In this document: positions 23,903 to 58,882 of the stretch, one piece after another
Position numbering within the stretch: the first letter of the stretch is position 1
Layout of the letters: each line of letters starts with the position of its first letter
DNA from: Clostridium algoriphilum
Lineage (GTDB): Bacteria > Bacillota > Clostridia > Clostridiales > Clostridiaceae
Reading direction: 5' to 3'
Length of the DNA: 64,000 nucleotides
NCBI RefSeq assembly: GCF_020443705.1
Contig: NZ_JAIZZK010000011.1
Coordinates: 10,810 to 74,809, forward strand
Notes under the pieces: generated by a model
Told to the model about the DNA's origin: nothing
What the model saw: the letters and a program-made list of their open reading frames with translations, nothing else
Databases searched by the model: none
Program-made: the position numbers and the translations under genes

Positions 23903-24259
23903 CTCCGCAACCTTACATGTATTAATTAATGTTTATAAATTAAAACAATTATGTAATAGAAACATTGTAACAAATTTTCTTGTGATTTCATATTAATTCT
24001 TAAACCCAAATTGTAAACATTTTTACTGTTATTACATATATTCCTACTGGTTATTCAACCATTATAAAATGCAAAATAATATCTACTAGTCAGTATAATA
24101 ATAAGCTTATGTCTTAAATTATGGCATTCCCACTATTTGTTTTTATCCTTTTAAAGTGCTATTATTAAACTTATATATATTGTATGAAAGTGGAAGCTTA
24201 CATACATAAACGTATTGCTGTTTATTATAACAAAATTCAGTATAATTGGAGATGAAAAC

Positions 24260-26656: not shown

Positions 26657-26657
26657 C

Positions 26658-28532
26658 TTAATCCTCCTTTATAGCTTTGAAAGCACAAGCTTCAATACAG
26701 GCACCACACTTAATGCACTTTTCTTTATCTATTGTATAAGGTAATTTAATCTTGCCAGAAATTGCATTAACCGGGCAAATCCTTGAACACTTTGAACAGC
26801 CTTTGCAAAGATCTTTATCTATAAATATAGTTTTAAGCCCTGAACAAGTTTTTGAGGGACATTTCTTTTGATTTATGTGAATTTCATACTCATCGCGGAA
26901 ATTTTTAATAGTACTAACAACTGGTAAAGCAGCTGTTTTACCGAGGCCACATAAAGCAGTATGCGATATAGTATCTGCAAGTTCCATTAACATGTCGATA
27001 TCGGATATTTTCCCTTCACCCGAAGTAATATTTTTAAGAATTTCAAGCATTCTTTTAGTACCTTCGCGGCAAGGAACACACTTACCACAAGATTCATTTT
27101 GGGTGAAGGTCATGAAGAATTTTGCAACTTCAACCATGCAAGTATCTTCGTCCATAACCACAAGTCCACCAGAACCTATCATTGCACCTACTTTTTTAAG
27201 CGAATCAAAGTCTAGCCTTAAATCAAGATCTGATGTTATAAGACATCCCCCTGACGGTCCTCCTATCTGCACAGCCTTAAACTTTTTGCCACCTTTGATT
27301 CCTCCACCTATACCGAATATTATTTCTCTTAATGTTGACCCCATTGGAACTTCAATAAGTCCTGTATTTTCAATATTTCCAGTTAAAGCAAATGCCTTTG
27401 TACCTGGACTATTTTCAGGTCCTATAGATTTATACCACAGTGCCCCATTAATAATAATTAAAGGTACATTAGCAAATGTTTCTACATTGTTAAGTACTGT
27501 TGGTTTAGCAAAAAGTCCCTGCTCCACTGTTCTTGGAGGTTTTACTCTTGGCATGCCTCTTTTTCCCTCAATCGAAGCAGTAAGAGCACTTCCTTCACCA
27601 CAAACAAATGCACCTGCCCCTTTATTTATTTTTATATTGAAATTAAAATTTGTTCCAAGAATGTTTTCACCTAAGATACCGTAACTTGTTGCTTGACTAA
27701 TAGCATTCTTAAGTCTACTTACAGCAAGAGGATACTCTGCGCGCACATAAATATATCCTTCGGTTGCTCCACAGGCTATAGCTGCAATCATCATTCCTTC
27801 AAGCACTCTATGTGGGTCTCCCTCCATTACACTTCTATCCATAAACGCACCTGGATCACCTTCATCTCCATTGCATACAATATATTTTATATCCGTTTTC
27901 TGATTTTTTACTTGAGACCACTTGCGACCTGTAGGAAATCCACCACCTCCACGTCCTCTTAGATTTGACTCTTCTATTTCTTCAATGATGTTTCCTGCAT
28001 CCATATCAAATAATGCTTTTTCAAGTGCACTATAACCTCCTACAGCAAAATACTCTTCTATAGAAGTTGCATCAATATGTCCACAATGTTCAAGTGCAAG
28101 CCTAGTTTGGCTTTTATAAAAAGGTATTTCCTCTTGTTTCTTGTATATTTTCCCGTTTTTAGTGTATGCAAGCCTCTCTACGCACTCATCATGTAGTATA
28201 GTTTTTTCTAGTATTTCTTCACAATCCTCTCGTTTGACTTTTATATATAGATATCCCCAAGGCTCAATTTTTACAAGTGGGCCCATTTCGCAAAATCCAT
28301 GACATCCACTTTTTTTAATTCCAACTGATTCGTCATGCGGTTCCTTTTGGAGACCTACTTCACAATCTATCTTTTTATCCTTCATTAACCTTATAAGTTC
28401 ATCATAAATTTCGAGTGCTCCACCTGCAATGCAACCAGTACCTGCACATATTAGAATTTTTTTCTTTTCTTTTTGGAAACTATCCGTGTATTCATCTCTG
28501 ATATTAATTAAATCATCTCTATTAAGAAGCAT
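26658..28532 (-). CDS. hydB: Hydrogenase NADH-binding flavoprotein subunit HydB (NuoF-like, with thioredoxin-like 2Fe-2S N-domain and C-terminal 2x[4Fe-4S])
   Basis: 624 aa; FMN/NADH motifs GRGGGGFPTG, soluble-ligand-binding domain, CxxCxxCxxxCP ferredoxin motifs at C-terminus. Confidence 0.9.
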   Translation of the reverse strand: MLLNRDDLINIRDEYTDSFQKEKKKILICAGTGCIAGGALEIYDELIRLMKDKKIDCEVGLQKEPHDESVGIKKSGCHGFCEMGPLVKIEPWGYLYIKVKREDCEEILEKTILHDECVERLAYTKNGKIYKKQEEIPFYKSQTRLALEHCGHIDATSIEEYFAVGGYSALEKALFDMDAGNIIEEIEESNLRGRGGGGFPTGRKWSQVKNQKTDIKYIVCNGDEGDPGAFMDRSVMEGDPHRVLEGMMIAAIACGATEGYIYVRAEYPLAVSRLKNAISQATSYGILGENILGTNFNFNIKINKGAGAFVCGEGSALTASIEGKRGMPRVKPPRTVEQGLFAKPTVLNNVETFANVPLIIINGALWYKSIGPENSPGTKAFALTGNIENTGLIEVPMGSTLREIIFGIGGGIKGGKKFKAVQIGGPSGGCLITSDLDLRLDFDSLKKVGAMIGSGGLVVMDEDTCMVEVAKFFMTFTQNESCGKCVPCREGTKRMLEILKNITSGEGKISDIDMLMELADTISHTALCGLGKTAALPVVSTIKNFRDEYEIHINQKKCPSKTCSGLKTIFIDKDLCKGCSKCSRICPVNAISGKIKLPYTIDKEKCIKCGACIEACAFKAIKED

Positions 28533-28533
28533 A

Positions 28534-29010
28534 TTATTTTACCTCCTTAAGTGTGCTTAAAATTTCCATTGCCTTTTCTGGAGTCATAGCACCATGTACT
28601 TTGTCATTAATAGTTATAGCCGGTGCAAGTCCACATGCCCCAAGACACGAAACCGTTTCCACGGTAAAACTCAAGTCATCCGTTGTAATCTTAGATTCTG
28701 AAAGTCCTAACTCTGCCCTCATCTTATCTAAAATAGGAATAGACTTTCTCACATGACATGCTGTCCCATCACATATTTTTATAACATACCTGCCTTTTGG
28801 TTCTAAAGAAAAATTATCATAAAAAGTTGCTACCCCATATATTTTTGCCATACTCATGTCAAGCTTATCTGAAAAATATGCGAATACCTCCTTAGGTAAA
28901 TACCTATATATTTCTTGCGTATCTTGTAGTATTGCAATAATATTACTAGATTTAAACTCATGATTTTTAAGTATGTTATCTAAGTCACTATAATTAATTT
29001 GCATATTCAT
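28534..29010 (-). CDS. hydC: Hydrogenase 2Fe-2S subunit HydC (NuoE-like)
   Basis: 158 aa; NuoE thioredoxin-like fold with Cys ligands (CDGTAC...C..GAC). Confidence 0.85.
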   Translation of the reverse strand: MNMQINYSDLDNILKNHEFKSSNIIAILQDTQEIYRYLPKEVFAYFSDKLDMSMAKIYGVATFYDNFSLEPKGRYVIKICDGTACHVRKSIPILDKMRAELGLSESKITTDDLSFTVETVSCLGACGLAPAITINDKVHGAMTPEKAMEILSTLKEVK

Positions 29011-29311
29011 TATTCTTCCCCCTCGATAAATTATTAAATTGTATCTTGTTTTTATTTTACAATATTTAATTCAGTAATACAATATTAATAAATATTAACA
29101 TCCTTATTATTATATTTACTTTACTGTATAATTTCAGTAATACGATAAAATCTATAAATTTGTTTAAATTGCATTATATATGTCGTTGCATTTAATATCG
29201 TACTATAGTGTTTATTGCAATAACCATTATATGTTTATTGCAAAATTTATAAAATTGTGATAATATTAGACTTTATGTTGTATGATGTATTATCAAAATT
29301 AGGGGGAATTT

Positions 29312-33224: not shown

Positions 33225-33301
33225 TGGTGCTCCATCAGGGAATCGAACCCTGGACACCCTGATTAAGAGTCAGGTACTCTAACCAGCTGAGCTAATGAAG
33301 C
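33225..33301 (-). tRNA. tRNA-Lys (anticodon CTT), CCA encoded
   Basis: Reverse complement GCTTCATTAGCTCAGCTGGTTAGAGTACCTGACTCTTAATCAGGGTGTCCAGGGTTCGATTCCCTGATGGAGCACCA folds as cloverleaf: 7-bp acceptor, D-arm GCTC/GAGT, anticodon stem CCTGA/TCAGG with loop CTCTTAA, T-arm CCAGG/CCTGA with GTTCGATTC. Confidence 0.9.
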
Positions 33302-34169: not shown

Positions 34170-35804
34170 GTGAAACGAATGATAGAGATAAATGATACAA
34201 TAGCAGCTTTCATAGAAAATCTAAAAACTTCAGATGATAAACAAAGATCTGCTATAATAAATAAACTATCCTTAGATTATAATAATGCTATTCCCATGTT
34301 ATGGTCAAAAATAATAACTGAGGATGACCCACGAACATTACTTTCTGTTATGAGAGATATTCTAAAAAAGGAAAAACCAAAGGGAATGTTCAAAAGAACT
34401 ATTGGTAATTCAAGGGAAAAGCTTAGTGCTCTTCTTTCCCATTCTGATCCAAAGGTTCGTAAAAATGTATGTGGTGTTATTGGAGAACTTGGGGATCCTG
34501 CATATTTAGAGGCTTTGTACAGCGCTTACAACTCCGAAGAAAAACTATTTGTTCGATATTCCTATGTACTTGCAATAGGAAACTGCGGCAGTGCACATGA
34601 TGCAGAGAGGTTAAAGAATATGTTTGATGAAGTAGTTAAAAATGAAAAAGCTTCTAAAGACAATGACTCACGAGTAACAACTAATAAACATATTAATGAG
34701 GAAAAGCTTGCACTTACGAGAGCAATAGATAAATTATGCCCAATGCCACGTCATGAATTTAAGGGGTTTGAAAATCCCGTATCCATATTACTCACAGTTA
34801 TGAATTATCAGTATCAACTTACAATAAAGGAACTTGATGATAAATTAATTGATGGCAGACTCATAGATGATGGTATCCTTATATTTGAGAAGGATATAGA
34901 CAAAGTTTACACTTGCAGGACATTTTATGAACTATTATATCCTTTAGCTGATTGTAATGATTTAGAATTTGATTATAAGGTAATAGCTTCGGAAATTATG
35001 AATGCAAATATAGTAGGCTTTTTAAAGGAGTGTCATTATAGTGATATTAAATCTCCTTTTGGTTACAGAGTTGAATTTAAAACTATGGATTCTAATAGAG
35101 ATCGGTCTGATTTTGTAAAAAACTTGTCTAGAGAATTAGATGAGCTTTCCTGTGGAGACTTAAAAAATAGCCCTTCTTCTTATGAAGTTGAAATTAGAAT
35201 ACTTGAAAAAAATAATCTATGTAATGTTTTTGTAAAGTTATATTCCTATAAGGATAATAGGTTTGAGTACAGAAAAAATGATTTAGCTACCTCTATAAAT
35301 CCAGTAACTGCAGCTATCGTTATAAAATCCATACAAAAATGGTTAGAACCAAATGCTAACGTTATAGACCCATTTTGTGGTGCTTCAACAATGCTTATTG
35401 AAAGAGCTAAGTTAGAACAGTATCAATCTTTAACAGGCGTTGATATATTTAGAACTGCTATAACAGCTTCAACAATAAATTCCAAGTTAGCTAATGTAAG
35501 TATTGAGCTTATAGCCGACGATATACTGGAATTTAGGCCTTATGACCTATATGATGAAATTATAACAAATATGCCATTTGATAATAAGTCCACTACCCAT
35601 AATAAGTATGCTGAGTTATATAAAGAATTTGTAGACAAAATACCTAATCTTATTAAACCAGAAGGAATAGCATTTATCTATACAATAGAAAAACAATTAT
35701 TTAGGGAAGTTCTCTTAGATAATGATCAGCTTGAATTACTTCAAGAAATAAAAATTGAAAGTGGCAGGCTCACACCTCATGTATTTGTTTTAAAGTTAAA
35801 ATAA
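34170..35804 (+). CDS. Fusion protein: N-terminal HEAT/PBS-lyase-like repeats + C-terminal class-I SAM-dependent methyltransferase (Trm11/RlmL-like N6-adenine/N2-guanine MTase motifs)
   Basis: 544 aa; HEAT-like repeats HSDPKVRKNVCGVIGELGDPAYLEAL; MTase motif I VIDPFCGASTMLIE and motif IV ITNMPFD (NPPY variant); aagaggtg RBS. Confidence 0.55.
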   Translation: MKRMIEINDTIAAFIENLKTSDDKQRSAIINKLSLDYNNAIPMLWSKIITEDDPRTLLSVMRDILKKEKPKGMFKRTIGNSREKLSALLSHSDPKVRKNVCGVIGELGDPAYLEALYSAYNSEEKLFVRYSYVLAIGNCGSAHDAERLKNMFDEVVKNEKASKDNDSRVTTNKHINEEKLALTRAIDKLCPMPRHEFKGFENPVSILLTVMNYQYQLTIKELDDKLIDGRLIDDGILIFEKDIDKVYTCRTFYELLYPLADCNDLEFDYKVIASEIMNANIVGFLKECHYSDIKSPFGYRVEFKTMDSNRDRSDFVKNLSRELDELSCGDLKNSPSSYEVEIRILEKNNLCNVFVKLYSYKDNRFEYRKNDLATSINPVTAAIVIKSIQKWLEPNANVIDPFCGASTMLIERAKLEQYQSLTGVDIFRTAITASTINSKLANVSIELIADDILEFRPYDLYDEIITNMPFDNKSTTHNKYAELYKEFVDKIPNLIKPEGIAFIYTIEKQLFREVLLDNDQLELLQEIKIESGRLTPHVFVLKLK

Positions 35805-35838
35805 GGACATGAAACATATTACGAATTAAAATTATAAA

Positions 35839-35880
35839 GGAATAGATGCACCTAACCATTAGGCGCATCTATTCCTTTTA
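35839..35880. terminator. terminator (ggaatagatgcacctaa / ttaggcgcatctattcc) between MTase-fusion gene and nadE copy A
   Basis: 17-bp inverted repeat, one mismatch, T-rich tail. Confidence 0.6.
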
Positions 35881-35885
35881 CTATA

Positions 35886-36689
35886 TTATTTAATCCACCA
35901 AGTATCTTTTGGGGAAACTGCCGAATGTCTTTTATGTTTAGACACTGTATATAATTTTAAAATTTGCTTCTCGTATTCTTCTGATATATCTTCACCTCTT
36001 AAATACATACAAACCTGATGATTTAAGGCTGTTACTTCATCTAAATTAGATTTATTGTCCCACATACCAGTAGTTGGGATTTTATTAATTATAGACTGGG
36101 GTGCCTTAAATATTTTTGCCATTTCACAAATTATACTTTTTGTTATTCCAGCTAGTGGTTTTACATCTGCTGCATCGTCGCCATACTTAGTAACCATTCC
36201 TAGAGTTAGATTAGTTACACTTGAATAACCAGCAACTAGAACATCATAAACTTCAGCTATTCTATATATTACGGTCATTCTTATTCTTGATTTTGTGTTT
36301 CCTATGTCTACTTTTGATGAAGGTAGATTATGAAGAAGATCAATGGATTCATTTACGGGACCCATTATATCATATGTCCTAAATACATCTGGTTTTATAA
36401 TACGTATTGCAAGTTCTACATCAGCTCTGTCTGGTTCAATGCCAAATGGAAGTGATAAACTAATTAGCTCAAGTCCTGATTTTTTTATAAGCATACTTGT
36501 AACAAAACTATCTATTCCACCTGAAAGATGGCAAACATAACCTTTTTTTCCAGTGCTTTGAGCGTAATCTTTCAAAAAAGTAGTGATTTCTTCTATCATT
36601 CTATATGCATACTTTTCATCTGACTCATCTTGCAGAGGAGTAGGTATACCAAATTCATTAACTATTTCTTGTTGTTTTACTTTATCCAT
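35886..36689 (-). CDS. nadE: NH3-dependent NAD+ synthetase NadE, paralog A
   Basis: 267 aa; PP-loop HLSGGIDS at residues ~54-61, block VTKYGDDAADVKPLAGITKS matching NadE FTKYGDGGADLLPLTGLTK, C-terminal ...SKHKR...DTWW as in NadE (HKRQ...DDWWK); taaggagg RBS. Confidence 0.75.
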   Translation of the reverse strand: MDKVKQQEIVNEFGIPTPLQDESDEKYAYRMIEEITTFLKDYAQSTGKKGYVCHLSGGIDSFVTSMLIKKSGLELISLSLPFGIEPDRADVELAIRIIKPDVFRTYDIMGPVNESIDLLHNLPSSKVDIGNTKSRIRMTVIYRIAEVYDVLVAGYSSVTNLTLGMVTKYGDDAADVKPLAGITKSIICEMAKIFKAPQSIINKIPTTGMWDNKSNLDEVTALNHQVCMYLRGEDISEEYEKQILKLYTVSKHKRHSAVSPKDTWWIK

Positions 36690-36744
36690 ATCGAGCCTCC
36701 TTAAACTTATTTATACATTTAGTATAACACACTCTGTCTACAGT

Positions 36745-36762
36745 ATGTTAAAATATTAACAA
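36745..36762. promoter_or_regulatory. Candidate Rex operator (aTGTTAAaataTTAACAA) 56 bp upstream of nadE copy A
   Basis: 17/18 match to firmicute Rex consensus TTGTTAA-N4-TTAACAA. Confidence 0.5.
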
Positions 36763-36798
36763 TATTATTTTATATCTTTGAGTGCATACACAAGTAAA

Positions 36799-36838
36799 GG
36801 AAAGAGATGCTTCTAACCATTAGATGCATCTCTTTAAC
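36799..36838 (-). terminator. terminator after nadE copy B (aaagagatgcttctaa / ttagatgcatctcttt), near-duplicate of the hairpin at 35839
   Basis: 16-bp inverted repeat; same ccattag loop core as the downstream hairpin. Confidence 0.6.
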
Positions 36839-36845
36839 TTAAATA

Positions 36846-37649
36846 TTATTTATTCCACCAAGAATCTTTTGGAGATACTGGTGAATTTCTTTTGTGTTTA
36901 GAAACTGTGTACAATTTTATGATCTTTTCTTCATATTGTTTTTCTATGTCCTCTCCTCTTAAATACATACAAACCTGATGATTTAATTCTGTAACTTCTT
37001 CTTGGTTCGCTCTATTGTCCCACATACCCGTGGTGGAAACTTTATCAATTATAGTTTGAGGAGCATTAAATATTTTTGCCATTTCATAAATTATGCTTTT
37101 TGTTATTCCCGCAAGCGGTTTTACATCTGCTGCATCATCACCATACTTAGTAACCATTCCTAAAGTAAGCTCGGCCACATTTGAGAAACCAGCAACTAAT
37201 ACATCATAAACTTCAGCTATTCTGTATAATACGGTCATTCTTATTCTAGATTTTGTATTACCTATATCTACTTTAGAAGATGGTAAATTACGAAGTAGCT
37301 CAATGGATTCGATTACAGGTCCCATAACATCATAAGTCCTAAAAACATCTGGCATTATAATTTTTTTTGCAAGCTCTACATCAGCTATATCCGGTTTAAT
37401 TCCAAATGGAAGTGATAGACTGATTAGTTCTAGCCCTGATTTTTTTATAAGCATATTTGTTACAAAGCTATCTACTCCACCAGTAAGATGACAGACATAA
37501 CCCTTTTTTCCAGAGCTCTTAGCATATTCTTTTAAGAAAGAAGTGATTTCTTCTATCATTCTAAATGCATACTTCTGATCTGACTCATCTTTATGAGGAG
37601 AAGGTATAGCAAATTCATTCATTATTTCTTGTTGTTTAAGTTTATCCAT
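36846..37649 (-). CDS. nadE: NH3-dependent NAD+ synthetase NadE, paralog B (~80% aa identity to paralog A)
   Basis: 267 aa; HLTGGVDS PP-loop; collinear with copy A over full length; identical RBS context ttaaggaggctc. Confidence 0.75.
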   Translation of the reverse strand: MDKLKQQEIMNEFAIPSPHKDESDQKYAFRMIEEITSFLKEYAKSSGKKGYVCHLTGGVDSFVTNMLIKKSGLELISLSLPFGIKPDIADVELAKKIIMPDVFRTYDVMGPVIESIELLRNLPSSKVDIGNTKSRIRMTVLYRIAEVYDVLVAGFSNVAELTLGMVTKYGDDAADVKPLAGITKSIIYEMAKIFNAPQTIIDKVSTTGMWDNRANQEEVTELNHQVCMYLRGEDIEKQYEEKIIKLYTVSKHKRNSPVSPKDSWWNK

Positions 37650-37704
37650 GTTGAGCCTCCTTAAATTTATCTATAATAATAGTATAACACATCACATGAA
37701 AATT

Positions 37705-37722
37705 TTGTTAAAATATTAACAC
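37705..37722. promoter_or_regulatory. Candidate Rex operator (TTGTTAAaataTTAACAc) 56 bp upstream of nadE copy B
   Basis: 17/18 match to TTGTTAA-N4-TTAACAA; same spacing to start codon as the copy-A site. Confidence 0.5.
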
Positions 37723-37767
37723 ATATTAATGGTTAATATTTTATTCACCTCCAATATAGATTATAAA

Positions 37768-37812
37768 GAGAAAAAGTTTCAAAATGTACAATAAATTTTG
37801 AAACTTTTTCTC
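37768..37812 (-). terminator. terminator after rnfB (agagaaaaagtttcaaaat / attttgaaactttttctct)
   Basis: 19-bp perfect inverted repeat. Confidence 0.65.
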
Positions 37813-37831
37813 TAAAAGCATATTATTCTCT

Positions 37832-38707
37832 TTAATCTGCGAGATTTTGATTTTTAACCACTTTTGCAGCTATACTTTGCTCTGGCATTTTTTCTATACG
37901 CCCTTCAATTGCGCCCGTTGGGCATTTATATAAGCATGTATTTTCACTACACAATGAAACACAAATTTCTGTATCAACTACTGCTAAGTTATTTTCAATT
38001 TTTATTGCATTATGTGGGCAATTTTTGACGCATAGGCCACATCCAATGCAACCAATACTGCAAAGTTTACGTGCCTTAACACCTTTGTCATGTGAATTAC
38101 AATTTAATGCTACATGAATTCCAAGAGGAACTAATTCAATAACTTTCTTTGGACAAACTGTTTGACATTTTCCACAACCTGTACACTTTTGTTCATTAAT
38201 AATTGGTAATCCTTCGTCACTCATTGTCATTGCATCAAAAGGACAGTTTTTAACACAGGTTCCAAAACCAAGACATCCATATTGACATCCCTTTGGTCCT
38301 CCCTGTAGTAATGAAGCTGCAACACAATCTTGCACGCCTTTATATTCATATGCCTTTTTAGCTTTACTTACTGAACCCGCACATTTTACAAAAGCTACCT
38401 TTGGTTCTATCTCCGCTGCTTTTTTACCAGTTAATTCTGCTACCAGTTTCGCAATAGGTGCTTTACCTGGAATGCAAAGATTTGGTTCTACATCTGGATT
38501 TATAACCACGGCTTCTGCATATGCCATACACCCAGCAAATCCACAAGATCCACACTGTCCTTTTGGTAATATATCTTCAACTATATGAATCAATGGATTT
38601 ACTTCAATGGCAAACTTTTTATTGGCAAACGCCAAAACTAAACCAAATACTAGTCCAACTAATGTCATTACAACTAAAACTGCAATTGCAATATCTATAT
38701 TACTCAT
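37832..38707 (-). CDS. rnfB: Rnf complex subunit B (polyferredoxin with N-terminal membrane anchor)
   Basis: 291 aa; N-terminal TM helix, multiple CxxCxxCxxxCP 4Fe-4S motifs; last gene of rnfCDGEAB. Confidence 0.85.
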   Translation of the reverse strand: MSNIDIAIAVLVVMTLVGLVFGLVLAFANKKFAIEVNPLIHIVEDILPKGQCGSCGFAGCMAYAEAVVINPDVEPNLCIPGKAPIAKLVAELTGKKAAEIEPKVAFVKCAGSVSKAKKAYEYKGVQDCVAASLLQGGPKGCQYGCLGFGTCVKNCPFDAMTMSDEGLPIINEQKCTGCGKCQTVCPKKVIELVPLGIHVALNCNSHDKGVKARKLCSIGCIGCGLCVKNCPHNAIKIENNLAVVDTEICVSLCSENTCLYKCPTGAIEGRIEKMPEQSIAAKVVKNQNLAD

Positions 38708-38727
38708 ATTAATTTCTCAGCTCCCTT

Positions 38728-39309
38728 CTATACTGCTATCATCCCAGAAAAACCTAGGAAGGCTAATGCTAACATACCTGCTAAAATAAACGCGATGCCA
38801 AGCCCCTCAAGTGGTTTAGGGACATCTGCGAGTCTTAATTTTTCTCTTAAACTTGCCATAAGTACAATTGCCAAAGCAAAGCCTAAACCGGCACCGACTG
38901 CAGATACTGTACTTTCTAAGAATGAATAACTATTCTCTACATTTAAAAGTGGTACACCAAGTACAACACAATTTGTAGCGATTAGTAATAAATAGATACC
39001 CCACATATTATATAATGTAGGTGCATGTTTTTTAATAATCATTTCTAAAAGCTGCACAAAACTAGCAATCAAAAGAACAAACACCGCTGTTGTTAAAAAT
39101 GTTAAATGAAAAGGAGCTAATACAAAATGATATACCACCCATGCGAGCATAGAACTTAGTGTCATAACAGAAGTTACAGCCATTCCCATACCAATAGAGG
39201 CGTTTAAACTTTTAGAAACTCCAAAGAAAATACAAAGTCCTAAAAATCTTGTTAAAACGTAGTTATTTACAATAACCCCACTTGCAAGAAGTGTTAAATA
39301 ATGACCCAT
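38728..39309 (-). CDS. rnfA: Rnf complex subunit A
   Basis: 193 aa polytopic membrane protein, RnfA/NqrE family composition. Confidence 0.85.
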   Translation of the reverse strand: MGHYLTLLASGVIVNNYVLTRFLGLCIFFGVSKSLNASIGMGMAVTSVMTLSSMLAWVVYHFVLAPFHLTFLTTAVFVLLIASFVQLLEMIIKKHAPTLYNMWGIYLLLIATNCVVLGVPLLNVENSYSFLESTVSAVGAGLGFALAIVLMASLREKLRLADVPKPLEGLGIAFILAGMLALAFLGFSGMIAV

Positions 39310-39932
39310 TATACTTCACCTCTCTCAAGTTTAACTTTTTCAGTGTGTTCAGTCCACATCTTAAAACCAGCTACCATGTAACCAATTAGTATAAATGCAC
39401 CTGGTGGTAAAATCATGATAAGTGCCGGATTATACCAAGAACCAAGAACTTTTATTCCAAATATAGCTCCTGTACCAAGAAGTTCACGAATTATCCCAAT
39501 AGATAAAAGCGCAAGTGCAAAACCACATCCCATTCCTAATCCATCGAAAAAGGATGGGGTAACTTTATTCTTTGAAGCAAAAACTTCTGCTCTAGCTAAA
39601 ATAATTGCAAAAACAACAATCAAAGCCAAATATATACCTAAAGCCTTAAAAAGCACAGGTAAATATGCCTGTAATACCAACTGTACCACCGTTACAATTG
39701 TTGCAACTGACGTAATATACACGGGTACACGTACCTTAGGATTTACTACTTTTCTAAAAATAGATACAATAACATTATTTACAGTAATAACAAACATTAC
39801 TGCAAGTCCCATAACTAGGGAATTTATCGCACTACTGGTTACAGCTAAAGCAGGGCAAAGACTAAGTGCAAGAACAAATATCGGGTTCTCTGCAATAATC
39901 CCTTTTTTGAATATATTCCATAGCTCTCTCAT
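39309..39932 (-). CDS. rnfE: Rnf complex subunit E
   Basis: 207 aa membrane protein, RnfE/NqrD family; start overlaps rnfA stop. Confidence 0.85.
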   Translation of the reverse strand: MRELWNIFKKGIIAENPIFVLALSLCPALAVTSSAINSLVMGLAVMFVITVNNVIVSIFRKVVNPKVRVPVYITSVATIVTVVQLVLQAYLPVLFKALGIYLALIVVFAIILARAEVFASKNKVTPSFFDGLGMGCGFALALLSIGIIRELLGTGAIFGIKVLGSWYNPALIMILPPGAFILIGYMVAGFKMWTEHTEKVKLERGEV

Positions 39933-39933
39933 A

Positions 39934-40518
39934 TTATTTTCCCCCTACAAACTGTGTAACTTGTTGCACAGCTTCTTTGATGCCTTTAGTTACCGCTTTA
40001 GACGAAATGGTAGCTCCAGTCATCGCTTGAATATTATTTACTTTTGTTGGGTCTTTTACAACTTCTAAATCTTTGACTGCTTTACCTTTGAATTGATTTC
40101 TAAAAGGATCTTTACTTGCATTATCTCCAAGTCCAGGTGTTTCCTTACTCTCTAATATATTAAAGTCAATAACTTCACCTTTTGGTGTAACTGATACAAG
40201 CATACTTATAGCTCCACCATACCCTTTGCTTTCTGCTGGTACAACATATGCAATTATTTTTCCATCTTTTTCTGCAGTAAACCAATCTGGTTTAGTTTTT
40301 ATCGCAGTAAAAGTTTGTGCATTTGTCACTAGTGACCTCATTGCATCAGTCTTAATTTTTGCTGCCGTTTTTACTGAAACTGGTGCTGTTATAAAATAGG
40401 TTCCAGCAATTATTGCACCTGATATAAAACAGGCAACTGTTAAATTTATAGCAATTTGAAAAATACTATACTTTTTTTCGTGATTAACCTTAGGATCAAT
40501 ATTATTCTCATCTGACAT
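39934..40518 (-). CDS. rnfG: Rnf complex subunit G (FMN-binding, membrane-anchored)
   Basis: 194 aa; single N-terminal TM, FMN_bind domain with conserved SGATISS flavinylation motif. Confidence 0.85.
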   Translation of the reverse strand: MSDENNIDPKVNHEKKYSIFQIAINLTVACFISGAIIAGTYFITAPVSVKTAAKIKTDAMRSLVTNAQTFTAIKTKPDWFTAEKDGKIIAYVVPAESKGYGGAISMLVSVTPKGEVIDFNILESKETPGLGDNASKDPFRNQFKGKAVKDLEVVKDPTKVNNIQAMTGATISSKAVTKGIKEAVQQVTQFVGGK

Positions 40519-41515
40519 TTTTCGCTACCCCCCTCGCTCCAAATTTAACTGGCTTCATAAAGCGATCAATAAGTGGTGTAACTGCATTCATTAATAAAAT
40601 AGAATAACAAACCCCTTCAGGGTATCCACCCTTAAGCCTAATTAGGACAGTAATCGCTCCAGCTCCAATTGCAAAGACTATCTGACCTTTCTTTGTGATT
40701 GGAATAGTAACCATATCTGTAGCCATAAAGAAAGCACCTATAATAAGTCCTCCAGCCATTATATGAAAGAGTGGATCTCCAGTGAATAAACCAGTTGGTC
40801 CACATACCCAAGTTAAAATACCTACAGTTGCAATCATAAATACAGGTACTATCCAATTTGCATAACCTTTATATATTAAATATATACCTCCAATTAGTAA
40901 TAAAACTGTAGAGGTTTCACCAATACTTCCATTACGAGCACCAATAAACATTGATTTATACATTTGAGGTGCACTTCCAAAAGTATCAATTAATTTTGAA
41001 TATCCTTGTTGTTTTAAAATACCGAGTGGTGTTGCAGAAGCTACTGCATCTACCTTTCCGCTCAAACTTGTCCAGGTTGTCATTGCTATTGGCCATGACA
41101 CCATAAGTGCAGCTCTACCTACATGAGCGGGATTAAAAATATTATACCCAAGACCACCCATAGAGTGTTTTGCTATAACAATAGCAATAAAAGAACCAAT
41201 TACTGCCATGTATGCTGGAATAGCTGGTGGTAAACACATTGAAAGCAAGAATCCTGTCAAAAATGCACTTCCATCAGATACTGTTATTGTCTTTTTTCTA
41301 AGTTTTTGCACTATGTACTCAAATGCCACTGCTGACAAACTTCCCGCAAGTAGTACTATTAAAGCAGGAGTTCCAAAGTGATAAATTGCAAAAATCGCTG
41401 CTGGAGTTAATGCCAGACTTACAGTCCACATAATTTTAGAAATAGATGCTTCTGCACGTATATGCGGAGACGTTGATATAGTAAAAAGATTATCTTGTAA
41501 TTTTATTTCACTCAT
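40508..41515 (-). CDS. rnfD: Rnf complex subunit D
   Basis: 335 aa polytopic membrane protein of NqrB/RnfD family; flavinylation-type motif TGATPLG. Confidence 0.85.
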   Translation of the reverse strand: MSEIKLQDNLFTISTSPHIRAEASISKIMWTVSLALTPAAIFAIYHFGTPALIVLLAGSLSAVAFEYIVQKLRKKTITVSDGSAFLTGFLLSMCLPPAIPAYMAVIGSFIAIVIAKHSMGGLGYNIFNPAHVGRAALMVSWPIAMTTWTSLSGKVDAVASATPLGILKQQGYSKLIDTFGSAPQMYKSMFIGARNGSIGETSTVLLLIGGIYLIYKGYANWIVPVFMIATVGILTWVCGPTGLFTGDPLFHIMAGGLIIGAFFMATDMVTIPITKKGQIVFAIGAGAITVLIRLKGGYPEGVCYSILLMNAVTPLIDRFMKPVKFGARGVAKNVR

Positions 41516-42849
41516 TTAGCTAGCGCCTCCTTTTTTTTTGCAGCATCAGCTGTGTTTCTCATCTTGCTGTATTTAATGTATTGTACGATATTGCGCTTAG
41601 CAGGACATACATAAACACAACTTCCACATTCTGCACAGTCAAATAGATTTTGTTCAAGTTTTGCTTCTTCATACATGTCTTTTTCTCCCAATATACTAAG
41701 CATACTTGGATTGAGTCCACAGGGACAAACAGTTACACATTTCCCACAACGAATACAAGGTGATTGCGTTCCGTTATTAATATCTTTTTTGTTTAATCCA
41801 AGGATCCCAGAAACTCCTTTAATAATAGAAATATCTAAATTTGATTGAGCAAATCCCATCATAGGACCACCCATAATAATCTTAGCTGGTTTTTCTGAAA
41901 ATCCACCACAATTATCTATTGCATCTTTAAATGTTGTTCCAATTCTTAAAAGAAGATTTTTAGGTTCTTTTACTGCACTTCCACTTATTGTAGTTACTCT
42001 TTGAATTAGTGGAATACCTTTTACCACTGCATCATTTATTGCAACAACTGTACCTATGTTTTGAACAACTACGCCCACATCCATTGGTAAACTTCCTGAT
42101 GGAACCTCACGATCAGCAATTACCTTAATTAGCATCTTTTCTGCTCCTTGTGGATATTTAGTTGGGATTGCCTTAACTTCCACTGTAGTTCCTTCAAATG
42201 CCTTTTGCATAACACTTACTGCATCAGGTTTATTGTCTTCAATTCCTATGACTGCTCTTTTAACTCCTAGAACCTGCATAATTATTTTTACACCAGTAAC
42301 AATTTGCTCTGGATACTCAAGCATCATTCTATGATCTGCTGTTAAAAACGGTTCACATTCTGCTGCATTTATAATAAGTAAATCAATTTTCTTTTCCTTT
42401 GGTGGTGACAATTTTACGTGAGTTGGAAATGTTGCTCCTCCCATACCAACGATACCTGCATCTTTAATGATGCCTTTTATTTCATTGTCATTTAATTTTT
42501 CCCAATCTCTTTGGACTGGAATTCCTTCTATCCACTCATCGAGTCCATCATTTTCAATAACAATAGAAAGACACTTACCAAATACTGGATGAGGATATTC
42601 TGCAACATCTGTAACAACACCAGATATAGATGCATGAGCCGGACTAGATACAAAAGCTGAACTATTTGCTATAACTTGTCCTTTTTTTACCAAATCGCCC
42701 TTAGCTACCATAGGTGCACAAGGCGCACCTATATGTTGCCTTACAGGAATAATAACCTTACTTGGTAGTAGGGCTATTTCTATAGACTTATCAGCTGTAT
42801 AACGTTTATTATCATTTGGATGTATTCCTCCACGAAAACTTTTAATCAC
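41512..42849 (-). CDS. rnfC: Rnf complex subunit C (NADH-binding, 2x[4Fe-4S])
   Basis: 445 aa; RnfC barrel, NADH/FMN-binding GxGGAxFP-like region (GMGGATFPTHVK), C-terminal CxxCxxCxxxCP pairs. Confidence 0.9.
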   Translation of the reverse strand: MIKSFRGGIHPNDNKRYTADKSIEIALLPSKVIIPVRQHIGAPCAPMVAKGDLVKKGQVIANSSAFVSSPAHASISGVVTDVAEYPHPVFGKCLSIVIENDGLDEWIEGIPVQRDWEKLNDNEIKGIIKDAGIVGMGGATFPTHVKLSPPKEKKIDLLIINAAECEPFLTADHRMMLEYPEQIVTGVKIIMQVLGVKRAVIGIEDNKPDAVSVMQKAFEGTTVEVKAIPTKYPQGAEKMLIKVIADREVPSGSLPMDVGVVVQNIGTVVAINDAVVKGIPLIQRVTTISGSAVKEPKNLLLRIGTTFKDAIDNCGGFSEKPAKIIMGGPMMGFAQSNLDISIIKGVSGILGLNKKDINNGTQSPCIRCGKCVTVCPCGLNPSMLSILGEKDMYEEAKLEQNLFDCAECGSCVYVCPAKRNIVQYIKYSKMRNTADAAKKKEALAK

Positions 42850-42922
42850 TTTCCCACACCTCTTTTAGCATATTTAAAATACATTGAATTATATAGATAT
42901 TTAAAATCTAGAATAATTTTAT

Positions 42923-43342
42923 TTAAGATATAATTTGAGTAATAACTGGTTGCATTTTGTCATTATTATGAGCATATCTATCAAATTTCTTTATACTGAG
43001 CATTGATAATACGAATGTTATTATTCCGCCACCTATTTGAAAACCTCGCATCGAATAACCAAGTTTTTTAGCTATTACTTGTCCAACAATAATACCTATT
43101 ACAACTGAAACTAATGGGGCTATATATACAACAAAAGCCGCCATTAACATATTTGTCTCTTTCATTTGGAACGAAATTCGTTGTCCAGTTTTAGCTCCTA
43201 TTGGATTTTTAGCTTCTATTACAACTGAACTGTCACCTGGGCATGCTCCACAATTTTTACACTCATTGTGCCTGCCTACTTTGACTTTTGCAATATTATT
43301 CTCAAATATTTCTATTATAATTCCTTCTTCTTCTTTTACCAA
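42923..43342 (-). CDS. RseC/MucC-family (SoxR-reducing system) small Fe-S/membrane protein preceding rnf
   Basis: 139 aa; N-terminal CxxC..C soluble domain (ECKNCGACPG) followed by two TM helices; gggggaggag RBS. Confidence 0.7.
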   Translation of the reverse strand: MVKEEEGIIIEIFENNIAKVKVGRHNECKNCGACPGDSSVVIEAKNPIGAKTGQRISFQMKETNMLMAAFVVYIAPLVSVVIGIIVGQVIAKKLGYSMRGFQIGGGIITFVLSMLSIKKFDRYAHNNDKMQPVITQIIS

Positions 43343-43819
43343 TTTTTCTACTCCTCCCCCTTGCTACAATACCAAATATATTATATTCACAGGGATAATT
43401 TCTATTCTAGTTACTCCACACCTCTTAACTAGAATAATAATTCTATTATAAGGTTACGATAAATTCTTATATATTACCTGTCGAATTATATATAAATTAC
43501 AAGTTCTATACCTCAAGATAGTTTTATTTCAGTTAAAAGTCAATAATAATCTATTTTTTAACAAGTATCTTTATAAGAGTTAATTAGGTTTATATAATAT
43601 AAACGCTTTTTAAAATGTATACAGCTTGTTAATTATCAATTTTTATTTTTGATAATATATTCTTGCATACTATTGTTTTTCACAATGTAGGAGAATAATA
43701 ATTCGTTACTATAATAAGAGTTTATAGATTGCTGTTATATTTATATCCTCCAGTACTAATACAGTGCTTGTAAATAATATTCTTTTATTTTATTATGTTT
43801 TAACTATTATTGCCGGATT

Positions 43820-43837
43820 TAGTTAAATATTTAACAA
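43820..43837. promoter_or_regulatory. Candidate Rex operator (TaGTTAAatatTTAACAA) in the long rseC-rnf leader
   Basis: 17/18 match to TTGTTAA-N4-TTAACAA, ~480 bp upstream of rseC start. Confidence 0.45.
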
Positions 43838-44175
43838 TCACTCATCTAGTGAATCTAAATTAGATATGCTTTTAACCTCAGTAATAGGCAAATTGCTGGG
43901 TTCATGCAAAGCTATTTATAATGTCTTAACCTTGAAAATGTACCTTATTCACTAGGTTATCTTAATTATATTATCCATTTAAGAAAAAGTTCTTTCTATA
44001 TAAGAAAGATAAATAGAGATACAATTTAATTGTATCTCTGTACTATAATTTATGTCTATGTTGATATTACTTCTCTTTTTTAAAATATTCTCGTTTTTAT
44101 ATTTGTAATTATAGATAAAGTGTATTAAATATGTTTTATTGATAATTATTTAACTAACTTCTATGATGTTATAAT

Positions 44176-44826
44176 TTATTCTAATATCATTTTATACATA
44201 AGTTCAGTTGGATCAAAAATAGGAATATCTGAATACTTTTTTAATTGATCATATAAATAAGGAAAGTGAGTGCATCCCAATATAATAGCTTCTACTCCGA
44301 TAGAATTATAAAACTCCATAACATTCCTTAATGCATATTTATCTACTATTTCTTTAGCAGATATACCTTTTTCTATTGCAACAACTATAGGGAGTATTCC
44401 TAATCCGATAACATCACAATCAGGATTTACACTTTGTATTACTTTTTCAATTCCTGCGGAGCTTTGATTATTAGCTGAAAGCACCCCAATATTGTGATAC
44501 TCACATGCAATTTTCTTATAAATATCGAATGGGGTTATTATTCTTATATCTTTTTTTCTAGATAACTTGTCCATATCAACTGCAGCACTTATAGAATTGC
44601 AATATATAACTACTGTATTAATGTTTTCATATTTTATCCGGTTTATTATATTACTAATTTTATTTGCAAGTTCAAATGGGGACAATATTTGCATCTTTGA
44701 TTGTTCCTCAGAGCACAAGGATACTGGGTATCCTAATGCCTTAATCCCTTTAGAATTCAAGAAATCCACTCCCATTTTAGTATCCACAGGAGTTCCTGCA
44801 ATAACCGCAACTAATATATTATTCAT
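44176..44826 (-). CDS. Asp/Glu/hydantoin racemase-superfamily protein
   Basis: 216 aa; N-terminal MNNILVAVIAGTPVDTKMGV and conserved Cys-containing halves typical of the Asp/Glu racemase fold. Confidence 0.6.
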   Translation of the reverse strand: MNNILVAVIAGTPVDTKMGVDFLNSKGIKALGYPVSLCSEEQSKMQILSPFELANKISNIINRIKYENINTVVIYCNSISAAVDMDKLSRKKDIRIITPFDIYKKIACEYHNIGVLSANNQSSAGIEKVIQSVNPDCDVIGLGILPIVVAIEKGISAKEIVDKYALRNVMEFYNSIGVEAIILGCTHFPYLYDQLKKYSDIPIFDPTELMYKMILE

Positions 44827-50298: not shown

Positions 50299-50317
50299 AT
50301 TTTTCTCCTTTTAGTAA

Positions 50318-56421: not shown

Positions 56422-56467
56422 CATGTTGTCTGTGTTATATGCTTTTAATTATTCTTTTATTTTGGAA

Positions 56468-58878: not shown

Positions 58879-58882
58879 AATG

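What the first reader, a model, noticed from the sequence alone, without database searches (positions are those of the whole stretch)
35839..37740. Tandem duplicated NH3-dependent NAD synthetase (nadE) paralogs, each with its own Rex-type operator and terminator
Two 267-aa PP-loop proteins (SGGxDS, NadE-like C-terminus ..HKR..DxWW) about 80% identical sit head-to-tail. Each is preceded by an identical RBS context (ttaaggaggctc) and a near-perfect palindrome TTGTTAA-aata-TTAACAA exactly 56 bp from the start codon. Each is followed by near-identical hairpins sharing a ccattag loop. The whole gene plus promoter plus terminator unit has therefore been duplicated and then diverged. NAD synthetase is normally single-copy, so two diverged, separately Rex-controlled copies imply redox (NADH/NAD+)-responsive tuning of the final NAD biosynthesis step, or sub-functionalisation (e.g. 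altered substrate or heterodimer).
Basis: partly seen in the sequence, partly recalled or inferred. Interest (0 to 1): 0.55.

Follow-up and report, generated by a model that had tools for sequence, protein, structure and literature searches.

The report
Tandem NAD synthetase paralogs with Rex boxes
A cold-loving Clostridium carries two adjacent, separately transcribed copies of a divergent NAD synthetase gene behind redox-repressor (Rex)-type DNA boxes, and the second copy has lost a magnesium-binding residue that is otherwise nearly invariant in this family, yet it is still kept by selection.

Summary
Two 267-aa NadE-family ORFs (36846-37649 and 35886-36689, minus strand) are 81% identical. 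Each has an 18-bp palindrome one mismatch from the clostridial Rex consensus, an extended -10, the same Shine-Dalgarno context and its own terminator hairpin. The window is Clostridium algoriphilum, and the pair lies just downstream of rseC-rnfCDGEAB.

Comparative data change the story. The duplication is old (dS about 0.7) and is shared by at least six relatives. The Rex-type box is conserved upstream of copy 2 in all nine orthologues, but upstream of copy 1 in only three of eight. It is absent from all four single-copy species.

The proteins are a divergent NadE clade that scores below the NCBIfam equivalog cut-offs. Their nearest relatives are NadE fused to nicotinamidase-like or Nudix domains.

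Copy 2 here has Asn where the Mg2+-ligand Glu162 (B. subtilis numbering) sits. That position is Glu in 268 of 269 diverse NadEs. Sister lineages add D50N, or carry E162K with S46A. Even so, dN/dS stays near 0.1.

Best reading: copy 1 is the working NH3-type NAD synthetase, and copy 2 is a retained, ATP/Mg-site-altered paralog. Both are probably repressed by Rex. This is a new variant of known kinds, of moderate interest. Rex binding and enzyme activity are untested.

The parts
36846..37649 (-). Copy 1: a 267-aa single-domain NadE-family protein. PP-loop TGGVDS, Glu at the Mg-ligand position (codon 160, 37170-37172, GAG).
   Evidence: It is 100% identical to 'NAD(+) synthase [Clostridium algoriphilum]' (P0001).
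35886..36689 (-). Copy 2: a 267-aa NadE-family paralog. PP-loop SGGIDS, but Asn (AAT, 36210-36212) replaces the Mg-ligand Glu162 (B. subtilis numbering).
   Evidence: AlphaFold2 model pLDDT 90.7; Foldseek TM 0.86 to B. anthracis and B. subtilis NadE.
37705..37722 (.). Rex-type 18-bp palindrome of copy 1 (GTGTTAATATTTTAACAA on the gene strand; one mismatch).
36745..36762 (.). Rex-type 18-bp palindrome of copy 2 (TTGTTAATATTTTAACAT on the gene strand; one mismatch).
   Evidence: The core GTTAAT-TTTT-AC is invariant in nine orthologous promoters.
37681..37691 (-). Extended -10 promoter element TGTGTTATACT of copy 1. The palindrome ends 19 nt upstream of the hexamer, so it covers the -35 region.
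   Evidence: Read from the sequence. Conserved in all orthologous upstream regions. The TTGACA-based scan did not list it.
36721..36731 (-). Extended -10 promoter element TGTGTTATACT of copy 2.
37656..37662 (-). Shine-Dalgarno AAGGAGG of copy 1.
36696..36702 (-). Shine-Dalgarno AAGGAGG of copy 2.
36801..36835 (-). Hairpin after copy 1 (-20.2 kcal/mol including the outer stem), followed by UUUCCUUUACUU.
   Evidence: z -5.1. It did not pass the strict terminator scan.
35836..35878 (-). Intrinsic terminator after copy 2 (20-bp stem, -30.1 kcal/mol, U-rich tail).
37770..37810 (-). Hairpin after rnfB (16-bp stem plus T-rich tail). It separates the rnf operon from copy 1.
   Evidence: z -3.5.
43820..43837 (.). 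Third Rex-type box (TTGTTAAATATTTAACTA on the gene strand), in the 830-bp intergenic region upstream of rseC-rnfCDGEAB.
   Evidence: RseC and the Rnf context.

Best explanation
The locus holds two monocistronic genes for a divergent, single-domain (ammonia-type) NAD synthetase clade. The clade is confined to the Clostridium estertheticum/psychrophilum/tagluense group, and the genes sit directly downstream of the Rnf (ferredoxin:NAD+ oxidoreductase) operon of C. algoriphilum.

Each gene has an extended -10 promoter whose -35 region is covered by an 18-bp palindrome of the clostridial Rex type. The inferred mechanism is as follows. At a low NADH/NAD+ ratio, Rex sits on the boxes and blocks RNA polymerase. 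When NADH rises, Rex leaves and both genes are transcribed, together with rnf if its upstream box is functional.

Copy 1 keeps all the canonical catalytic residues except Thr157. It is the likely working enzyme for NaAD + ATP + NH3 -> NAD+.

Copy 2 descends from an old duplication whose Rex box is conserved in every species examined. In the algoriphilum/psychrophilum sublineage it has lost the Mg2+-ligand Glu by the path GAA -> AAA (Lys) -> AAT (Asn). Relatives carry further PP-loop changes. It keeps the NaAD-site residues, a confident NadE fold and strong purifying selection.

I therefore read copy 2 as a retained paralog with an altered or disabled adenylation site. NadE is a homodimer whose NaAD sites lie across the dimer interface (established structural knowledge). 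Copy 2 most plausibly acts as a partner of copy 1 in a heterodimer, or as a low-activity isozyme.

What is shown: gene structure, homology, the motif match and its conservation, the residue substitutions and the selection values. What is inferred: Rex as the binding protein, the direction of regulation, the enzymatic activity of copy 1, and the impaired catalysis and heterodimer role of copy 2.
For: Homology:
- PF02540 at 131 bits; TIGR00552 at 147-156 bits against a cut-off of 63.65.
- B. subtilis NadE 1ee1 at E 2e-33.
- Copy-2 model TM 0.86 to 2pz8 and 1nsy.

Link to NAD metabolism:
- The nearest relatives outside the clade (38-44% identity) are NadE fused to isochorismatase (PncA-like) or Nudix domains.

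Operator:
- One mismatch to the consensus quoted in PMC4600107.
- 3 sites against 0.19 expected.
- In about 135 kb of related loci the core occurs only upstream of nadE copies.
- It sits at a fixed 54-55 nt from the ATG, with an invariant core amid diverged flanks, in 9/9 copy-2 promoters.
- One orthologue changes TTAACA to TTCACA, which is the general Rex half-site.
- NiaR, NrtR and NadR motifs do not fit, and no riboswitch was found.

Catalytic site:
- Glu162 is Glu in 268/269 diverse NadEs and Asp50 is Asp in 266.
- Copy 2 is Asn in the window, UBA4746 and C. psychrophilum.
- UBA4746 also carries D50N. Metagenome copy-2 proteins carry E162K plus S46A.
- R137, R139, K170, D173, D177, K186, T208, H257 and K258 are kept.

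Selection:
- Orthologue dN/dS is 0.06-0.15 for copy 1 and 0.09-0.18 for copy 2.
Against: - No Rex protein or rex gene was seen in the window, and binding is untested.
- The outer two bases of each half-site vary. C. frigoris has four mismatches to the 18-mer.
- The whole clade scores far below the NadE equivalog cut-offs (147 against 250). It has replaced the ATP-contact Thr157 with Phe, Tyr, Val or Ala, so even copy 1 might not be a standard NAD synthetase.
- Asn can ligate Mg2+ through its carbonyl oxygen, so copy 2 may still be active.
- I could not determine whether these genomes hold another, canonical nadE (one search was inconclusive).
- The roles of Glu162, Asp50 and Thr157 come from my recollection of the B. 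subtilis NadE structures and UniProt/HAMAP annotation. No paper read here confirms them (searches did not supply this).
Confidence: 0.6

Rival explanations
1. Both copies are ordinary, active NAD synthetase isozymes. The Glu-to-Asn change is tolerated, and the pair simply provides dosage or differently regulated isozymes (constitutive versus redox-induced) in psychrophilic clostridia.
For: Both ORFs are intact, are under purifying selection and have a confident NadE fold. Copy 2 of the estertheticum group still has Glu162. Several NAD synthetase genes per genome are known elsewhere.
Against: Glu162 is Glu in 268/269 diverse family members. The same lineage then accumulated further ATP-site changes: D50N in UBA4746, and S46A plus E162K in L013. 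A fully active enzyme would not be expected to do that.
Confidence: 0.25
2. The palindromes are operators of a regulator other than Rex, for example a nitrogen-specific or NAD-specific repressor.
For: No rex gene or binding data are available. The outer consensus positions are poorly conserved. NAD genes in clostridia are known targets of NrtR and NiaR. nif/anf genes lie nearby.
Against: The geometry is TGTTAA-N4-TTAACA. That does not fit the NiaR core TGT-N4-ACA, the 21-bp GT-N7-AC of NrtR, or the TGTTTA-N6-TAAACA of NadR. By my reading it is one base short of the TnrA/GlnR pattern TGTNAN7TNACA (motif recalled from memory). It matches the Rex consensus at 13/14 specified positions. A third site lies upstream of rnf, a plausible redox target.
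Confidence: 0.2
3. The whole clade has been neofunctionalised. These PP-loop proteins no longer make NAD, or they use another substrate such as NaMN, and a canonical nadE elsewhere in the genome does the housekeeping job.
For: The scores are below the equivalog cut-offs. Across the clade the conserved GTDH(A/T)E motif is replaced by G(F/Y/V/A)SN(V/A)AE, and GDG by GDD, whereas the nearest fused relatives keep the canonical motifs. The taxonomic range is narrow. Family members with a different substrate exist (F. tularensis NMN synthetase 3fiu).
Against: The NaAD-contact residues and the HKR...WW C-terminus are kept. In single-copy species such as C. tagluense the gene sits alone behind a conserved promoter. 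The nearest relatives are fused to NAD-salvage domains.
Confidence: 0.15
4. Copy 2 is a decaying duplicate on its way to becoming a pseudogene.
For: It has lost an invariant catalytic residue. Its dN/dS is slightly higher than that of copy 1 (0.107 against 0.061 versus UBA4746).
Against: It keeps a full-length ORF, promoter, operator, SD and terminator in at least four species carrying the substitution. dN/dS is 0.09-0.18, far below 1. The substitutions cluster at codons 157-160 rather than being scattered.
Confidence: 0.05

Closest known systems
NH3-dependent NAD+ synthetase NadE (B. subtilis 1NSY/1EE1, B. anthracis 2PZ8; PF02540, TIGR00552)
   Same: Single PP-loop synthetase domain of about 270 aa, with the same fold (TM 0.86). 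It conserves N133, R137, R139, K170, D173, D177, K186, T208, H257 and K258, and has the HKR...WW C-terminus.
   Different: Only about 30% identical and below the NCBIfam equivalog cut-offs. Thr157-Asp-His is replaced by Phe/Tyr-Ser-Asn/Ser, and Gly174 by Asp. Copy 2 has Asn for Glu162. Copy 1 has Thr for the first PP-loop Ser.
NadE-isochorismatase (PncA-like) and Nudix-NadE fusion proteins from metagenome assemblies (P0037-P0041, P0044, P0045)
   Same: These are the closest sequence relatives outside the clade (38-44% identity, E 1e-50 to 1e-59). They share the long N-terminal helix and the C-terminal HKR...WW.
   Different: They carry a second NAD-recycling domain and keep the canonical SGGVDS and GTDHATE motifs. 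The window proteins are stand-alone and have lost GTDH.
Rex regulon of Clostridia and other Gram-positive bacteria (operator TTGTTAANNNNTTAACAA; general consensus TTGTGAANNNNTTCACAA)
   Same: An 18-bp palindrome with one mismatch, placed in the promoter. NAD-biosynthesis genes are listed among conserved Rex targets (PMC6391272). In S. pneumoniae, a rex deletion raises pncB and nadE expression (PMC6018154).
   Different: Here each of two tandem nadE paralogs has its own box. The box tracks one paralog lineage across species. No experimental evidence exists for this clade.
Bacteria with several NAD synthetase genes (Azospirillum brasilense and Herbaspirillum seropedicae NadE1/NadE2; the 'multiple N' genomes of De Ingeniis et al. 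2012)
   Same: More than one NadE-family gene per genome, under different regulation.
   Different: Those paralogs are glutamine-dependent two-domain enzymes regulated post-translationally by PII, or are distant paralogs. Here the pair is 81% identical, single-domain and tandem, and one copy has a mutated metal site.
C. acetobutylicum NrtR-controlled nrtR-pncA / pncB-nadD-nadE cluster
   Same: A clostridial nadE under dedicated transcriptional control (PMC2330246).
   Different: It has a different regulator (NrtR, a 21-bp GT-N7-AC motif), an operon context with salvage genes, and one copy.

Membership tests
NadE / NAD synthetase family (PF02540, TIGR00552) | Profile match above the curated threshold | tested here: met
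   PF02540 at 130.9 and 131.3 bits (cut-off 21). TIGR00552 at 147 and 156 bits (cut-off 63.65).
NadE equivalogs (NCBIfam NF001979 / NF010587) | Score above the equivalog cut-off, the level at which NCBI would name the protein as the orthologous enzyme | tested here: not met
   NF001979 at 147.6 and 139.4 bits against 250. NF010587 at 128 and 135 bits against 255.
NadE / NAD synthetase family | PP-loop motif SGGxDS | tested here: met
   Copy 2 reads SGGIDS. Copy 1 reads TGGVDS, a conservative Ser-to-Thr change seen in 1/269 diverse members.
NadE / NAD synthetase family | Mg2+ ligands Asp50 and Glu162 (B. subtilis numbering; roles recalled from the structures and UniProt annotation) | tested here: not met
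   Copy 1 has both. Copy 2 has Asp50 but Asn at position 162. That position is Glu in 268/269 diverse NadEs. The row is therefore met for copy 1 and not met for copy 2.
NadE / NAD synthetase family | ATP-contact Thr157 | tested here: not met
   Phe in copy 1 and Tyr in copy 2. Thr in 248/269 family members.
NadE / NAD synthetase family | NaAD-site and catalytic residues N133, R137, K170, D173, D177, H257, K258 | tested here: met
   All are conserved in both copies and across the clade.
NadE / NAD synthetase family | NadE three-dimensional fold | tested here: met
   The copy-2 AlphaFold2 model has pLDDT 90.7. The top 48 PDB hits are all NadE or NMN synthetase, with a best TM of 0.86.
NadE / NAD synthetase family | ATP-dependent amidation of NaAD to NAD+ | not testable with these tools
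   This needs an enzyme assay or genetic complementation.
Ammonia-type (single-component, type N) NADS | No fused glutaminase domain and no glutaminase subunit in the operon | tested here: met
   The 267-aa proteins have a single domain and are monocistronic. The neighbours are rnfB and a convergent methyltransferase.
Rex operator | 18-bp inverted repeat matching TTGTTAANNNNTTAACAA or TTGTGAANNNNTTCACAA | tested here: met
   One mismatch each. 3 sites against 0.19 expected.
Rex operator | Located in a promoter, and conserved upstream of orthologous genes | tested here: met
   The box ends 19 nt upstream of an extended -10. It is conserved in 9/9 copy-2 promoters and 3/8 copy-1 promoters.
Rex operator | A rex gene in the genome, and NADH-sensitive binding of Rex to the site | not testable with these tools
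   No rex gene was found among the window ORFs scanned. Binding needs an EMSA.
NiaR / NrtR / NadR operators | Motif geometry: NiaR TGT-N4-ACA core; NrtR 21-bp with GT-N7-AC; NadR TGTTTA-N6-TAAACA | tested here: not met
   The site is TGTTAA-N4-TTAACA, that is TGT-N10-ACA or GT-N10-AC.
NAD+ riboswitches and other cis-regulatory RNAs | Rfam covariance-model match in the leader | tested here: not met
   Only a tRNA reaches the gathering threshold. Nothing relevant appears at E <= 1 in 35700-44300.

The most novel reading that the evidence does not exclude
Copy 2 is a catalytically inactive pseudo-NadE kept for a non-enzymatic job. It would be a Rex-induced subunit that pairs with the active copy 1 across the shared NaAD-binding dimer interface, or that binds NaAD or NAD(H) itself. 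NAD synthetase output would then be tuned post-translationally to the NADH/NAD+ ratio. In relatives where copy 1 has lost its Rex box (UBA4746, the estertheticum group), only this modulator would remain redox-controlled.
Probability: 0.15. Interest if true: 0.65.

Novelty: new variant of a known kind. Interest (0 to 1): 0.4.

Why it matters
NAD synthetase catalyses the last, usually essential, step of NAD synthesis and is a drug target. It is usually treated as a constitutive, single-function enzyme. This clade offers a natural series:
- one gene;
- then two genes;
- then one copy under a redox-repressor box;
- then that copy losing its metal site while still being preserved by selection.

If the boxes are real Rex sites, NAD pool size is wired directly to the NADH/NAD+ ratio, next to the Rnf complex that uses NAD+. 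If copy 2 is inactive but functional, it would be, to my knowledge, a first example of a pseudoenzyme in this family, and a handle on how NadE dimers are regulated. If neither holds, the locus is an ordinary lineage-specific duplication.

Tried and rejected
1. Looking for a canonical second or third nadE in the same genomes. A word-indexed search with a typical clostridial short NadE (P0049) returned 6852 hits, of which only the top 120 are listed. None came from the C. estertheticum group, so the result is inconclusive.
2. Taxonomy of the fused relatives. The cluster look-up gave no names.
3. Literature support for the roles of Glu162 and Asp50. Two searches and one paper gave nothing usable. 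The roles therefore rest on my memory, plus the conservation count.
4. Zhang et al. 2014 (the Rex regulon in clostridia) is not held in the library. The consensus is cited second-hand from PMC4600107.
5. RNA-based regulation of the leaders was rejected.
6. NiaR, NrtR and NadR operators were rejected on geometry. A TnrA/GlnR site was rejected by inspection, because the spacing is one base short (motif from memory).
7. Copy 2 as a pseudogene was rejected on dN/dS and intact signals.
8. A recent local duplication was rejected (dS 0.73; the pair is shared by other species).
9. The sigma-70 consensus scan did not pick up the promoters I propose, because they lack a TTGACA-like -35. The extended -10 was read by eye and rests on conservation.
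10. Bootstrap supports of the NJ tree were computed but not printed. The monophyly of copy 2 therefore rests on the tree topologies, two shared substitutions and the shared operator.
Full report
**1. What is there**

The region holds two 267-aa ORFs on the minus strand. Copy 1 is 36846-37649 and copy 2 is 35886-36689. They are 81% identical (217/267) with no gaps.

Both match Pfam NAD_synthase (PF02540, E about 5e-38) and TIGR00552 nadE (147 and 156 bits against a cut-off of 63.65). They score well below the NCBIfam equivalog models: NF001979 gives 147 and 139 bits against 250, and NF010587 gives 128 and 135 bits against 255. The best solved relative is B. subtilis NadE (1ee1, E 2e-33, about 30% identity), including the C-terminal HKRxxP...WW. 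An AlphaFold2 model of copy 2 is confident (pLDDT 90.7). Its top 48 PDB matches are all NadE or NMN synthetase, with a best TM of 0.86.

Copy 1 is identical to 'NAD(+) synthase [Clostridium algoriphilum]', and copy 2 corresponds to a second entry from the same 117-kb contig.

Upstream on the same strand lies rseC-rnfCDGEAB (37832-43342). It is closed by a hairpin at 37770-37810. Downstream is a convergent HEAT/methyltransferase gene.

**2. The signals**

The two DNA units align from about 75 nt upstream of the ATG to the end of the terminator hairpin, and similarity is lost further upstream. Each unit has the following parts:
- An 18-bp palindrome, at 37705-37722 and 36745-36762. Each has one mismatch to TTGTTAANNNNTTAACAA.
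- An identical TGTGTTATACT (TG-extended -10), 19 nt downstream of the palindrome.
- The sequence TTTAAGGAGGCTC.
- An ATG 55 nt after the palindrome.
- A hairpin sharing CTAATGG. The folding energies are -20.2 and -30.1 kcal/mol, with z-scores of -5.1 and -8.6. Only the second passes the strict terminator scan.

Sites with at most one mismatch number 3 in 64 kb against 0.19 expected. The core GTTAANNNNTTAAC also occurs 3 times against 0.11 expected. All three sites are intergenic. The third (43820-43837) lies in the 830-bp region upstream of rseC-rnf. Of five sites with at most two mismatches, four are intergenic, although only about 13% of the window is intergenic. One small correction: the PP-loop of copy 1 is TGGVDS, not SGGxDS.

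**3. Comparative genomics**

Twelve genome loci and three metagenome contigs carry relatives.

Tandem pairs exist in Clostridium sp. UBA4746, C. psychrophilum, C. frigoris, C. estertheticum and C. frigoriphilum. In a metagenome relative (L013) the pair is split by an inserted LigB/AMMECR1 and radical-SAM cassette. C. tagluense, Clostridium sp. CF012 and C. lacusfryxellense show one copy at this locus, again right after rnfB in the first two. The short C. thailandense contig also shows one copy.

The copies within a genome differ by dS of 0.56-0.73, so the duplication is old. In NJ trees the copy-2 genes form one group (supports were not printed). They share the substitutions I113N and Q216L.

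The palindrome sits at the same distance from the ATG in all nine copy-2 promoters. Its core GTTAAT-TTTT-AC is invariant while the flanks have diverged. In about 135 kb of related loci the core occurs only at these positions. One orthologue reads TTGTTAATGTTTTCACAC, which swaps the clostridial half-site for the general Rex half-site TTCACA.

Copy 1 carries the box only in C. algoriphilum, C. psychrophilum and L013. UBA4746, whose copy 1 is 96% identical, lacks it. Its sequence looks like a deletion between the 8-bp direct repeat ATGTGTTA that occurs both in the left arm of the box and at the -10. Copy 1 of the estertheticum group and three of the four single-copy genes (not C. thailandense) instead share a different upstream element, TATGGnnAAATAGnATAAT.

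**4. Which regulator?**

The geometry TGTTAA-N4-TTAACA matches the Rex consensus quoted for clostridia (PMC4600107) and the general TTGTGAANNNNTTCACAA (PMC6391272). It does not fit the other NAD regulators:
- NiaR has a TGT-N4-ACA core.
- NrtR has a 21-bp site with GT-N7-AC.
- Enterobacterial NadR has TGTTTA-N6-TAAACA.

By inspection it is also one base short of TnrA/GlnR sites (motif from memory). No riboswitch or other Rfam family matches the leaders.

NAD biosynthesis is listed among conserved Rex targets. In S. pneumoniae, a rex deletion raises pncB 2.0-fold and nadE 1.6-fold. Rex is therefore the best candidate. No rex gene was seen in the window ORFs I scanned, and binding is untested.

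**5. The proteins**

An exhaustive HMMER search found only nine proteins at E <= 1e-30 among 1.8 billion cluster representatives. After the clade itself, the closest are fusion proteins at 38-44% identity. These are NadE fused to an isochorismatase (nicotinamidase-like) domain, and one Nudix-NadE. This ties the subfamily to NAD salvage.

Those fused relatives keep the canonical SGGVDS and GTDHATE motifs. The clade here has G(F/Y/V/A/S/C)(S/T)N(V/A)(A/S/T)E, and GDD instead of GDG.

I aligned 269 diverse NadE-family proteins to a profile. The counts for the key positions (B. subtilis numbering) are:

| Position | Residue | Count out of 269 |
|---|---|---|
| 162 | Glu | 268 |
| 50 | Asp | 266 |
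| 157 | Thr | 248 |
| 170 | Lys | 263 |
| 173 | Asp | 268 |

By my recollection of the B. subtilis structures and the UniProt/HAMAP features, Asp50 and Glu162 ligate Mg2+ and Thr157 contacts ATP. Both window copies have lost Thr157 (Phe in copy 1, Tyr in copy 2).

Copy 1 keeps Asp50 and Glu162. Copy 2 has Asn (AAT, 36210-36212) at position 162, as do its orthologues in UBA4746 and C. psychrophilum. UBA4746 copy 2 additionally has D50N. The L013-type copy 2 (P0007, P0011, P0033) has E162K plus S46A. The codons suggest the path GAA to AAA to AAT. Copy 2 of the estertheticum group still has Glu.

The fixed differences between copy 1 and copy 2 in this sublineage number 12. Three of them cluster at codons 157-160, and no NaAD-contact residue has changed.

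dN/dS among orthologues is 0.06-0.15 for copy 1 and 0.09-0.18 for copy 2. Copy 2 is therefore constrained, not decaying.

**6. Interpretation**

Shown:
- Two independent transcription units encode an old pair of divergent NadE paralogs.
- A conserved Rex-type palindrome overlaps the -35 region.
- Copy 2 has a derived change at a near-invariant metal-site residue, under continued purifying selection.

Inferred:
- Rex represses both genes at a low NADH/NAD+ ratio and releases them when NADH rises. If the 43820 box is functional, this would happen in step with rnf.
- Copy 1 is the working ammonia-dependent NAD synthetase.
- Copy 2 has an altered or disabled adenylation step. It is kept as a dimer partner or a low-activity isozyme. 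The heterodimer idea rests on NadE being a homodimer with NaAD sites at the interface (recalled structural knowledge), and on the nearly identical 121-156 segment in both copies.

Rivals: both copies are fully active (0.25); the boxes bind a regulator other than Rex (0.2); the clade no longer makes NAD (0.15); copy 2 is a decaying pseudogene (0.05).

**7. Novelty and score**

Several NAD synthetase genes per genome and Rex control of NAD genes are both known. Three things are new here:
- The clade itself.
- The tandem arrangement with one box per gene, where the box tracks one paralog lineage.
- The conserved metal-site loss in copy 2.

I rate this as a new variant of known kinds, with an interest of 0.4. 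Its own refutation criterion (a copy lacking catalytic residues) is met in letter but not in spirit, because the copy is not degrading.

Noticed in passing
window 43343-44175 (sites 43820-43837 and 44139-44156): The 830-bp intergenic region upstream of rseC-rnfCDGEAB holds a third Rex-type box with one mismatch, about 480 nt from the rseC start, and a weaker two-mismatch box. This suggests that the Rnf operon and the nadE pair share a regulator. No ORF of 30 aa or more and no Rfam match fills the region.
   Followed up: partly
L001:5860-6003 (Clostridium sp. UBA4746) versus window 37647-37800: The closest relative has lost the copy-1 operator. Its sequence looks like a deletion between the 8-bp direct repeat ATGTGTTA, which occurs in the left arm of the box and again at the -10. 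Only the extended -10 is left.
   Followed up: partly
L013:1397-3864 (metagenome ERZ27294312): In one relative the two nadE copies are separated by an inserted LigB/AMMECR1 fusion gene and a radical-SAM gene (an AmmeMemoRadiSam-type cassette). The flanking synteny is otherwise the same as in the window.
   Followed up: no
L005:4430-4574, L006:4816-4960, L008:4823-4967, L011:5520-5664, L009/L010/L004:5860-6003: Copy 1 of the estertheticum group and the single-copy genes of C. tagluense, CF012 and C. lacusfryxellense lack the Rex box. They share another conserved upstream element, TATGGnnAAATAGnATAAT, directly before the TGTGTTATAAT -10. This could be a second promoter or a site for a different regulator.
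   Followed up: no
L002:6920-7000 (C. psychrophilum copy 2 leader): A 24-nt expansion of the repeat ATAAATAT between the -10 and the Shine-Dalgarno moves the Rex box from 55 to 79 nt from the ATG.
   Followed up: no
window 37723-37739: A second palindrome, ATATTAACCATTAATAT (7-nt arms), abuts the copy-1 Rex-type box. It is absent from copy 2 and from the relatives.
   Followed up: no
proteins P0037-P0041, P0044, P0045, P0047, P0050: There is a set of uncharacterised fusion proteins of about 455 aa, NadE-isochorismatase (nicotinamidase-like), and one Nudix-NadE of 428 aa. They come from unnamed metagenome assemblies and would join the first and last steps of nicotinamide salvage in one polypeptide.
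   Followed up: partly
window 24968-29010: A three-gene HydABC-type [FeFe] hydrogenase (NuoE-like, NuoF-like and HydA-like subunits), the architecture of NAD-linked electron-bifurcating hydrogenases. No Rex-type box with three or fewer mismatches lies in its upstream region 29011-29311.
   Followed up: partly
window 55211-63915: A nitrogenase-related cluster. It contains a truncated NifE/N-like ORF, an 872-aa protein combining a nitrogenase component-1-type oxidoreductase domain, a radical-SAM domain and a dinitrogenase FeMo-cofactor-binding domain, split homocitrate-synthase-like genes (HMGL-like and HCS_D2) and an AnfO-family gene.
   Followed up: no
window 47893-52229: An 801-aa ORF that looked to me like a glycyl-radical (PFL-like) enzyme, next to a transaldolase/FSA-like ORF, a DeoR-type regulator ORF and a divergent activase-like radical-SAM ORF. 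All were identified by eye from the translations only.
   Followed up: no
window 33225-33301: A lone tRNA-Lys(CTT) gene on the minus strand, between the Band-7 gene and the nitroreductase gene.
   Followed up: yes
window 24215-24838: A 207-aa Nudix-domain protein. It has no room for the C-terminal winged-helix domain of NrtR regulators, so it is probably not an NAD regulator.
   Followed up: partly
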